A stretch of 37,698 bases of DNA from positions 1-37,698 of the forward strand of contig NW_021835938.1 in NCBI RefSeq assembly GCF_006345805.1. The letters run 5' to 3'. The DNA comes from Octopus sinensis. Lineage: Eukaryota. The translations under genes were made by a program, and so were the position numbers. The notes beneath the pieces are model-generated. The model was not told the DNA's origin, ran no database searches, and was given only the letters and a program-made list of their open reading frames with translations. The number at the start of each line of letters is the position of its first letter. Within the stretch, counting starts at the first letter, position 1. Below, in pieces: positions 5,792 to 30,750 of this stretch.

Positions 5792-6193
5792 TATATATAT
5801 ATATATGTGTTCTCTAACCGATAAATTAACTGCAGCTAACTATTAGCTGCAGGCTAGTTTTCTCGGGTCTCATCGCGCCAAAATTAGAGACATTTGAAAT
5901 ATATATTTCAAATGTAATAGGCCGTACTCCATGCACGCGATATTTCGGTATTGTGTTGGCATTTAGTACAGCAAATTACATTTTATATGGCTGCACTTTT
6001 CCTTGCGGAAAATAACAGCCGAAACTGAATTTAGTACATGGGTAAATATTTATTTCGTATATTTTTCACTTGTTTATTGTTTTGGTTTTGTGTTGAGTTT
6101 GATCTGAGAACATAGACTTTTTGTGGAGAATGGCGATTTGACGTCTATATCTAGCATGTTGACTGTCCACTTTTTCGTGTTCAGTCCTTAATT

Positions 6194-6238
<45 letters not shown>

Positions 6239-6653
6239 GATATTAATTTAAACTACACTGCCGTATGCCCAAATTTGGCCAAATGCGTTTTTCGATATTT
6301 ATTTTCGTTTGCAATAGCCAGTTCTTTTGGTCAAACTATCGTATCTCCAGCTTCAGATGCCAAGATATCAAAAATTGTTAAGGTGTAGTAGAACGGAGTA
6401 GCATTTCTTAAAAGTGTAGTATGTCCCACATACGACAGTTTTGCAGCAATATTTCTGACTGAAAATATTATACATGCACGGAGTTACGATTTTATGCACC
6501 CAACTAAAGTATTATTGTTTGGCTAAAACCGTTACTAATGTAAAAAGAAATGGAATGGTGAAGCAATTTCTTCGTTTTCTGAGAAGCAACGTTTTGGACT
6601 TACGACACTTTTGCATAACAGCAACGTTACACACACGCACACACACACATCTA

Positions 6654-27815: not shown

Positions 27816-27881
<66 letters not shown>

Positions 27882-27923
27882 CAATAATAATTCTCTAAAA
27901 GAGATATAGACAGTAACTGCTCG

Positions 27924-28422
27924 ATAACATAAGGGACTAAAGCCATCTGAATATGGCTAGGGACAGGGCAGGGTGGTGGGGGTGTCACTGTTGCATTTAG
28001 CCCCAGGCGAACATCGACGTCGCCAGATAGGCTTGACACCATCACGGTGTCCTTTAACCTGCAAAGGGAGATAATTCCCCGATGAAGCAGAGAATTATTA
28101 TTGCTGTCGAACAGATTTTCGAAATCAGCAAATGTATTTTGCTTGAAAATCTATATATGAATATCCTGCAGAGTGAGATTTCGTCGAGGAAGCGGAGGCC
28201 TACCACACGTTGACGATAGGCAATACACCTTGAAACCATGGTCCGTGTGTGGTTTCCGCTTCATCGGGGAATTATCTCCCTTTGCAGGTTAAAGGACACC
28301 GTGATGGTGTCAAGCCTATCTGGCGACGTCGATGTTCGCCTGGGGCTAAATGCAACAGTAACACCCCCACCACCCTGCCCTGTCCCTAGCCATATTCAGA
28401 TGGCTTTAGTCCCTTATGTTAT
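27924..28422. repeat. 165 bp inverted repeat (1 mismatch seen) with 169 bp spacer, between (TA)n tracts
   Basis: 27924-28088 is the reverse complement of 28258-28422. There is an additional 17 bp inverted match between 27880-27896 and 28089-28105. Confidence 0.97.
28204..28249 (+). ncRNA. Minimal type I hammerhead-like motif with GUC cleavage triplet (C3U variant)
   Basis: Stem I CACACG/CGUGUG, UUGACGA, stem II AGG/CCU, GAAA, palindromic ACCAUGGU, then C at 28243. Confidence 0.65.
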
Positions 28423-28776
28423 ATATATATATATATATAATATATATATTATATATATATATATATACATATATATATAACAAAGAAAGGAAAATGCACA
28501 CACTTTACATAGCCTTAATATATTTTAAAAATTATTTTATATTGTTTGTCGACCGGTTCGCTTTCGCTAATCATGACATTGAAATTATTGTTATTTCGTA
28601 TTTTCTTAAGAAGATTTTAGCCCATGTTGTGTGTGAAGTTTGTGAATGAATGGATTCAACAAGTAGAAAAGTCTAAAGTATCAGAATCGAACTCAGTCGT
28701 GTTTTTCACAAAACACACACGCAATATGTGAGTACATGTGGATGTTTGCGTGCGCGCGGCATGAGTGTGCGTATAT

Positions 28777-30143: not shown

Positions 30144-30750
30144 TTAGCGAGTGTGGCTGTGTGGCGGAGGCGCATGCGTGGGTGTGTTGTATAGGCGCAG
30201 GCGTGGTTGTGTGGCGTAGACTCTGGCGTGGCTGTGTGACATAGGCGCAGGCGTGGCTATGTTGCGTAGGAGCAGGCGAGACTTTGTGGTAAGATATTTG
30301 CTTCCCACCCACATAGTCCCGGGTTCAGTTTCACTGCGTGACACCTTGGACAAGTGTCTTCCATTATAGCCACGGGCCGACCAAAGTTTTCTGAATGGAT
30401 TTGGTAGTCGGAAACTGAAAGGCCTTCGGATGTGTGTGTGTGTGAGTGTGTCTTTTTCCCTGTGTTTGACCCCCTACTTCCCATAACTCCCCCTTACATC
30501 TGTTATTATCTAAAATGAAACAGTCGCAGCTAGCTATCTTGTTTCCCATATAATTCTTAAAATTGACAAGCGGACAGCCAATGTTGGGTTGTTTAAGTCT
30601 CCGTCACTTAGCAGTTCAACAAATGACACTTATAACGTAAGCGCCAGACATAAAAAGGGGCATCTGTACTAAGGTCGATATTTGTTTGGCTAATACCCAC
30701 GAGGCGGTGCCCCAGCATGGCCAAAGTCCAATAATTGTAACAAGGTAACG
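30144..30750 (+). mobile_element. Diverged SINE family A with a six-fold tandem 25 bp head
   Basis: Units start at 30144, 30169, 30194, 30219, 30244 and 30269, followed by the normal body ending gaggcggtgccccagcatggcc. Confidence 0.85.

What the first reader, a model, noticed from the sequence alone, without database searches (positions are those of the whole stretch)
27880..28422. Young 165 bp inverted duplication enclosing a minimal GUC hammerhead, inserted in (TA)n
Seen: arms that differ at one of 165 positions, so the insertion is recent. The spacer ends in CACACG-UUGACGA-uAGG..CCUu-GAAA-CCAUG-GUC-CGUGUG, and a second 17 bp inverted copy of the spacer start lies outside the left arm. There is no ORF. 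Known: a palindromic stem III (here ACCAUGGU) marks minimal PLE hammerheads that act as dimers. Inference: a non-autonomous PLE- or retrozyme-like family unrelated in sequence to the other hammerhead repeats here. The double inversion may record template switches during integration.
Basis: partly seen in the sequence, partly recalled or inferred. Interest (0 to 1): 0.7.

Follow-up and report, generated by a model that had tools for sequence, protein, structure and literature searches.

The report
Penelope-type retrozyme with wobble hammerhead core
The mirror-image repeat is one insertion of a young 361-base protein-free repeat that has the end pattern of Penelope jumping genes and is likely copied by their enzymes; its hammerhead (self-cutting RNA) motif never has the textbook core in this family yet sits in a lineage that keeps its pairings, so it likely cuts slowly, which is untested.

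Summary
The palindrome is real (165-bp arms, 1 mismatch), but it is one inversion, not two. A 361-nt tandem unit lies forward (28089-28422) behind one inverted, 5'-truncated piece (27880-28088); the '17-bp second inversion' is read-through into the next unit, part of a 44-nt tail. Of 53 insertions sampled, 42 are head-to-head; 35 of those end one arm at site A and the other at site B, 44 nt on; none is A/A or B/B. That is the published Penelope-like (PLE) footprint, not a MITE. The hammerhead is a full type I, not minimal, with covarying helices and a palindromic stem III, in a clan of over 2,000 motifs in this genome. The core never reverts: UUGA in 132 copies, CCGA in 38, CUGA in 0. The U3·G8 wobble is held across several successive families while stem III keeps changing palindromes, so it is likely tolerated. 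No linked ORF; young RT+GIY-YIG PLEs with the same end pattern exist in the genome. Cleavage, circles and the driver are untested. The scan reported this kind of element, the two-end rule and a wobble core before on other DNA of this genome. New variant of a known kind.

The parts
27820..27879 (.). Left (TA)n microsatellite, insertion target
27880..28088 (-). Single inverted, 5'-truncated piece of the tandem unit (209 nt: unit positions 170-361, then 1-17 of the next unit); outer end is site B
27880..27923 (-).
27924..28088 (-). Left 165-bp arm
28089..28422 (+). Forward piece, unit positions 1-334 of the 361-nt unit; outer end is site A
28195..28256 (+). Type I hammerhead fold: stem I with internal loop, core UUGACGA (28210-28216, U3 opposite G8), U·U mismatch then 3-bp stem II with 7-nt loop, GAAA, palindromic stem III (28235-28242), predicted cut after C28243
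28258..28422 (+). Right 165-bp arm (3' half of the unit, with motifs shared across the clan)
28423..28479 (.). Right (TA)n microsatellite

Best explanation
This is one head-to-head insertion of a young, protein-free 361-nt tandem unit (a non-LTR retrozyme), likely pasted into a (TA)n run by a Penelope-like RT/GIY-YIG protein supplied in trans. Inferred steps: a more-than-unit RNA (uncut multimer or circle) is bound by the PLE protein; both target strands are nicked about 9-13 bp apart; one strand primes reverse transcription at internal site A and the other at site B, 44 nt downstream; both cDNAs stop early and are joined at their 5' ends. That gives the palindrome, with the tail on one side only. 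The hammerhead has a U3·G8 wobble in place of the C3-G8 pair and likely works as a slow, dimer-dependent ribozyme (about 55%) that insertion does not require.
For: Shown: 361-nt period in a real tandem; 434 exact 3'-end matches in the genome. Census of the 53 insertions behind the first 100 of those matches: 42 head-to-head, 35 of 42 with ends A+B, 0 A/A, 0 B/B, 7 with at least one other end; (TA)n on both sides in 36 of 53; 9-13-nt direct repeats at four non-TA head-to-head sites; arms 24-806 nt. Arms of one insertion differ by 0.87% (83/9,496 sites, 51 insertions) against 3.3% between insertions, and share common variants in 131 of 135 cases, so they come from one RNA source. Published PLE features match: inverted 5'-truncated copy, 30-40-bp tail at one end, (TA)n bias (PMC8557442, passages); two internal RT start sites bound the tail and both strands are cut and extended (PMC11167929, parts 1-2 of 4). 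Young 781-aa RT+GIY-YIG elements in this genome, about 97-99% alike over most of their length, show two ends about 35-40 nt apart in (TA)n in the two copies read. Hammerhead: 15 of 19 pairs change on both sides across 15 clan members, 0/500 shuffles, slid controls far lower. Among the first 100 of 2,149 related motifs (hand tally) positions 3/8 are C-G 57, U·G 25, U-A 17, C·A 1. The U3 lineage forms one clade (23 of 39 rows, 100/99 with core columns dropped), within which stem III switches between palindromes.
Against: No autonomous partner shares sequence with the unit: blastn and a clan profile against 35 GIY-YIG loci hit only neighbouring insertions. No footprint of cleavage: 3 of 84 junctions fall in unit positions 150-170 (about 5 expected if uniform) and 50 of 84 arms read through the cut site. 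In the predicted ensemble stem II has probability about 0.05 and the monomer stem III about 0; the best fold pairs G5-A6-C7 with the GUC. The core carries a change at a conserved position plus a U·U at the base of stem II. Copies are not independent events, and the covariation shuffle ignores relatedness. The window's own junction was not seen in contigs of four other runs.
Confidence: 0.8

Rival explanations
1. Same PLE-type insertion, but the ribozyme is dead: the family spreads from uncut multimeric transcripts and the fold is kept for another use, such as RNA dimerisation or protein binding.
For: No canonical core in the family; no junction enrichment at the cut site; inactive fold favoured; hammerhead mutants do not impair PLE insertion in vitro (PMC11167929).
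Against: G5, A6, A9, GAAA and GUC stay invariant, and 3/8 combinations avoid C·A (1 of 100 listed) while allowing U·G and U-A; the youngest branch regains C3 opposite G8; U4C is reported to keep enough activity in a viroid (PMC3088659, passages).
Confidence: 0.35
2. An ordinary MITE with 165-bp terminal inverted repeats.
For: Long near-perfect inverted arms and no ORF.
Against: Arm lengths vary from 24 to 806 nt, junctions are scattered, 27 of 84 arms exceed one unit, and the two ends are not symmetric.
Confidence: 0.02
3. The palindrome at this locus is an assembly or library fold-back artefact.
For: The junction was not seen in contigs of four other runs; it lies on a small contig.
Against: A fold-back would mirror the right end exactly; here the left end carries 44 more nt and has a unique flank beyond the (TA)n, and 35 other insertions obey the same rule.
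Confidence: 0.03
4. A SINE-like repeat moved by a LINE, with the inversion made by L1-type twin priming (recalled model, not read here).
For: 5' truncation, target duplications and inversions also occur with LINEs (general knowledge).
Against: Twin priming on one RNA inverts without duplicating the 3' end; here both arms carry the 3' region and end at two fixed internal sites, without a poly(A) or repeat tail.
Confidence: 0.05

Closest known systems
Metazoan non-LTR retrozymes (Cervera and de la Pena 2020, PMC7229834, passages; Li, Clavereau and Pollet, bioRxiv 10.64898/2026.07.22.740005, parts 1-2 of 5)
   Same: Non-coding tandem unit in the 170-400-nt range with one type I hammerhead per unit; U·U at the base of helix II and a 2-bp helix III with tetraloop, as in axolotl HHR_Amex2; proposed PLE origin.
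   Different: Here most insertions are short head-to-head pairs with a fixed A/B end rule, and the core is UUGA or CCGA, never CUGA. Cleavage and circles are shown for the published ones, not here.
EN+ Penelope-like elements (Craig et al. 2021, PMC8557442, passages; Arkhipova et al. 2013, PMC3846280, passages; Frangieh et al. 2024, PMC11167929, parts 1-2 of 4)
   Same: Partial tandems, inverted 5'-truncated copy, tail at one end, (TA)n bias, 8-10-bp target duplications in rotifers, two internal RT start sites.
   Different: No ORF; tail 44 nt rather than 30-40; no sequence shared with the autonomous PLEs sampled.
Natural hammerhead core variants: U3-A8 (PMC4209133, parts 1-2 of 4; PMC3088659, section 8), viroid U4C (PMC3088659, passages), halophile U3...G8 with a 2-nt insertion (PMC7151607, passages)
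   Same: Deviation at positions 3, 4 or 8 with the rest of the core kept.
   Different: Uncompensated U3·G8 without insertion, held through successive multi-copy families, then replaced by C3-C4-G8. Searches found no such report, but three key papers could not be read.

Membership tests
Non-LTR retrozyme | Short (170-400 nt) non-coding unit in head-to-tail tandems | tested here: met
   361-nt period, arms up to 2.2 units, no ORF
Non-LTR retrozyme | Type I hammerhead secondary structure in each unit | tested here: met
   Covariation in stems I, II and the stem III palindrome
Non-LTR retrozyme | Consensus core CUGANGA | tested here: not met
   UUGA 132, CCGA 38, UCGA 1, CUGA 0; canonical in outer clan members
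Non-LTR retrozyme | Self-cleavage and circular RNA | not testable with these tools
   Only contigs of runs guessed to be RNA were available
PLE-type insertion | Inverted 5'-truncated copy head-to-head | tested here: met
   42 of 53 insertions
PLE-type insertion | Short tail at one end only | tested here: met
   44 nt; 35 of 42 A+B, none A/A or B/B
PLE-type insertion | (TA)n bias, short target duplications elsewhere | tested here: met
   36 of 53 with (TA)n on both sides; 9-13-nt repeats at 4 non-TA sites
Autonomous PLE | RT + GIY-YIG ORF inside the element | tested here: not met
   No tblastn hit in the window; only unlinked fragments in 2 of 111 family loci
Minimal PLE hammerhead (as defined in PMC4209133) | No helix III/loop 3, short helix I with poorly defined loop 1 | tested here: not met
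   6-bp proximal helix I, conserved internal loop, 2-bp helix III with palindromic tetraloop
MITE | Fixed terminal inverted repeats and symmetric ends | tested here: not met

The most novel reading that the evidence does not exclude
A natural hammerhead lineage has worked for several successive waves of amplification with an uncompensated U3·G8 wobble core and then moved to a C3-C4-G8 core by way of U3-C4, never the textbook CUGA. This would mean retrozymes are selected for slow, dimer- or protein-gated cleavage. The strict one-A/one-B end rule would then record two RT starts on one RNA by a PLE dimer.
Probability: 0.3. Interest if true: 0.6.

Novelty: new variant of a known kind. Interest (0 to 1): 0.42.

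Why it matters
It is a small, recent, protein-free substrate that shows the PLE integration footprint cleanly (two priming sites 44 nt apart, one per arm), so it could be used to test how PLE proteins build head-to-head insertions and move retrozymes in trans. The clan offers a natural series of 3/8 core states (C-G, U·G, U-A) and a U4C branch in one RNA context, which would show how much hammerhead activity a retrozyme needs. The class and the footprint are already described.

Tried and rejected
MITE, second inversion and 'minimal' hammerhead: rejected. Reversion to CUGA: 0 matches; the 5 CUGA motifs with a 7-nt loop II differ from this family. Rfam: no hammerhead among the 150 rows shown of 196. 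A second hammerhead on the minus strand: no NUH triplet. Junction enrichment at the cut site: none. Linked PLE ORF or shared 5' flanks in 14 one-armed loci: none, apart from one duplicated locus and unrelated repeats. Expression: no RNA holder listed. In two runs guessed to be RNA, from two studies, one 390-letter contig lies wholly on the tandem (one unit plus 30 letters, CC core); this fits a closed loop from a circle or a multimer, but contigs cannot show RNA, strand or ends, so I do not count it. The locus junction was not seen in contigs of 4 other runs, which proves nothing. Kinetic data for C3U were not found; Przybilski and Hammann 2007, Nelson and Uhlenbeck 2008 and Lunse et al. were not held, and no supplements were read, so U3·G8 variants may be listed there.

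Full report
Observation. The arms are 27924-28088 and 28258-28422, 165 bp with one mismatch, and the junction is clean at 28088/28089. The element lies between (TA)n runs. There is no ORF.

One inversion. A search of the own genome with the spacer gave 45 scored matches from 680 candidates, the top 40 at 98-100% identity. One locus (L018) holds a true tandem with period 361 nt, and the window's whole left piece matches it as one contiguous stretch. So the insertion is a forward piece (unit 1-334) preceded by one inverted, 5'-truncated piece (unit 170-361 plus 1-17). The 17 bp plus a 27-nt linker form a 44-nt tail.

Family census. An exact 23-nt 3'-end pattern has 434 matches. The first 100 (contigs C1-C3) fall in 53 insertions, which I took whole; extrapolating gives roughly 230 insertions. 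Of the 53, 42 are head-to-head. In 35 of the 42 one arm ends at site A (unit 334, within a few letters) and the other at site B (unit 378). None is A/A or B/B; 7 have at least one other end. (TA)n flanks both sides in 36 of 53. Four non-TA head-to-head sites show 9-13-nt direct repeats. Arms run from 24 to 806 nt and 27 of 84 exceed one unit. Across 51 head-to-head insertions (38 from the census, 13), arms differ by 0.87% against 3.3% between insertions and share common variants in 131 of 135 cases. This excludes a MITE and makes a fold-back artefact unlikely.

Match to PLE biology. Craig et al. describe partial tandems, an inverted 5'-truncated copy, a 30-40-bp tail at one end and (TA)n bias (PMC8557442, passages). 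Rotifer Penelope copies have 8-10-bp target duplications (PMC3846280, passages). Frangieh et al. show that a PLE protein cuts and extends both strands, starts at two internal RNA sites that bound the tail, and does not need hammerhead cleavage (PMC11167929, parts 1-2 of 4). The genome holds many GIY-YIG loci (147 matches among 150 scored). [quoted passage not shown] It shares no sequence with our unit, so the driver is a candidate only.

The hammerhead. It is a full type I: 6-bp proximal stem I, a conserved internal loop, a U·U then 3-bp stem II, and a 2-bp stem III with a palindromic tetraloop. Across 15 clan members 93% of cells pair and 15 of 19 pairs change on both sides. The double-hammerhead form scores -40.4 kcal/mol against -23.4 for two monomers. 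Both lie above the best folds (-57.8 and -60.6), partly because my drawn structures omit outer pairs, and stem II is rare in the ensemble.

The core. It does not revert: UUGA 132 matches, CUGA 0; CCGA 38 and UCGA 1. The CC variant also appears in contigs of other runs. A looser pattern finds 2,149 related motifs with a 5-6-nt loop II, control 0. In the first 100 listed, tallied by hand, positions 3/8 are C-G 57 (8 of them with C4), U·G 25, U-A 17 and C·A 1. These are copies from about nine families, not independent events. A tree of 39 units from 32 loci, rebuilt without the core columns, puts the U3 families and ours in one clade (100/99), with the CC branch nested inside it next to the single UC copy; grouping CC with the canonical families is rejected (p-AU 5e-10). 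Within that clade stem III moves between palindromes, including a double change inside our family. I infer that U3·G8 is tolerated. Published natural variants are U3-A8 (PMC4209133; PMC3088659 section 8), viroid U4C and a halophile core with U3, G8 and an insertion (PMC7151607). I found no kinetic data for C3U alone, and three relevant papers were not held.

Against cleavage mattering. Junctions are not enriched at the cut site (3 of 84 in unit 150-170) and 50 of 84 arms read through it. The template is therefore an uncut multimer or a re-ligated circle; these data do not separate the two.

Earlier notes of this scan, read after my analysis, describe sibling families in this genome with the two-end rule and one with a wobble core. 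They agree but are not independent evidence. They call the genome octopus-like; I did not test that.

Verdict. A real, young PLE-type retrozyme insertion. The architecture is known; the uncompensated wobble and U4C cores in an amplifying lineage are the unusual part. Interest 0.42.

Noticed in passing
L082:2236 (minus strand), about 500 nt after a 775-aa RT+GIY-YIG frame: This autonomous PLE copy has a hammerhead-shaped motif with a C3-C4 core (CCGAAGA) and palindromic stem III; one copy seen.
   Followed up: no
L057, L058, L067, L070-L073, L080, L081, L085 (downstream of GIY-YIG frames): A PLE family carries a U3-A8 hammerhead motif with palindromic stem III.
   Followed up: no
L085:5269-5515 (minus strand): A diverged clan member with a U3-A8 core, inserted next to a PLE.
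   Followed up: partly
L031-L032, L036, L037, L042, L043, L045, L050: A separate family with almost no stem II and the same stem III palindrome, also in head-to-head pairs.
   Followed up: partly
L076:1-653 and 5936-6591: The full-length PLE copy is flanked by a 656-nt direct repeat at 99% identity, far longer than a target duplication.
   Followed up: no
window 28494-28600: Another high-copy repeat begins just right of the (TA)n; many contigs of other runs lie on it.
   Followed up: no
window 30153-30289: GC-rich 25-nt tandem repeat, 5.5 copies.
   Followed up: no
L007 and L018: The same insertion and 1 kb of flank at 99.5% identity on two contigs: a duplicated or haplotype copy.
   Followed up: partly
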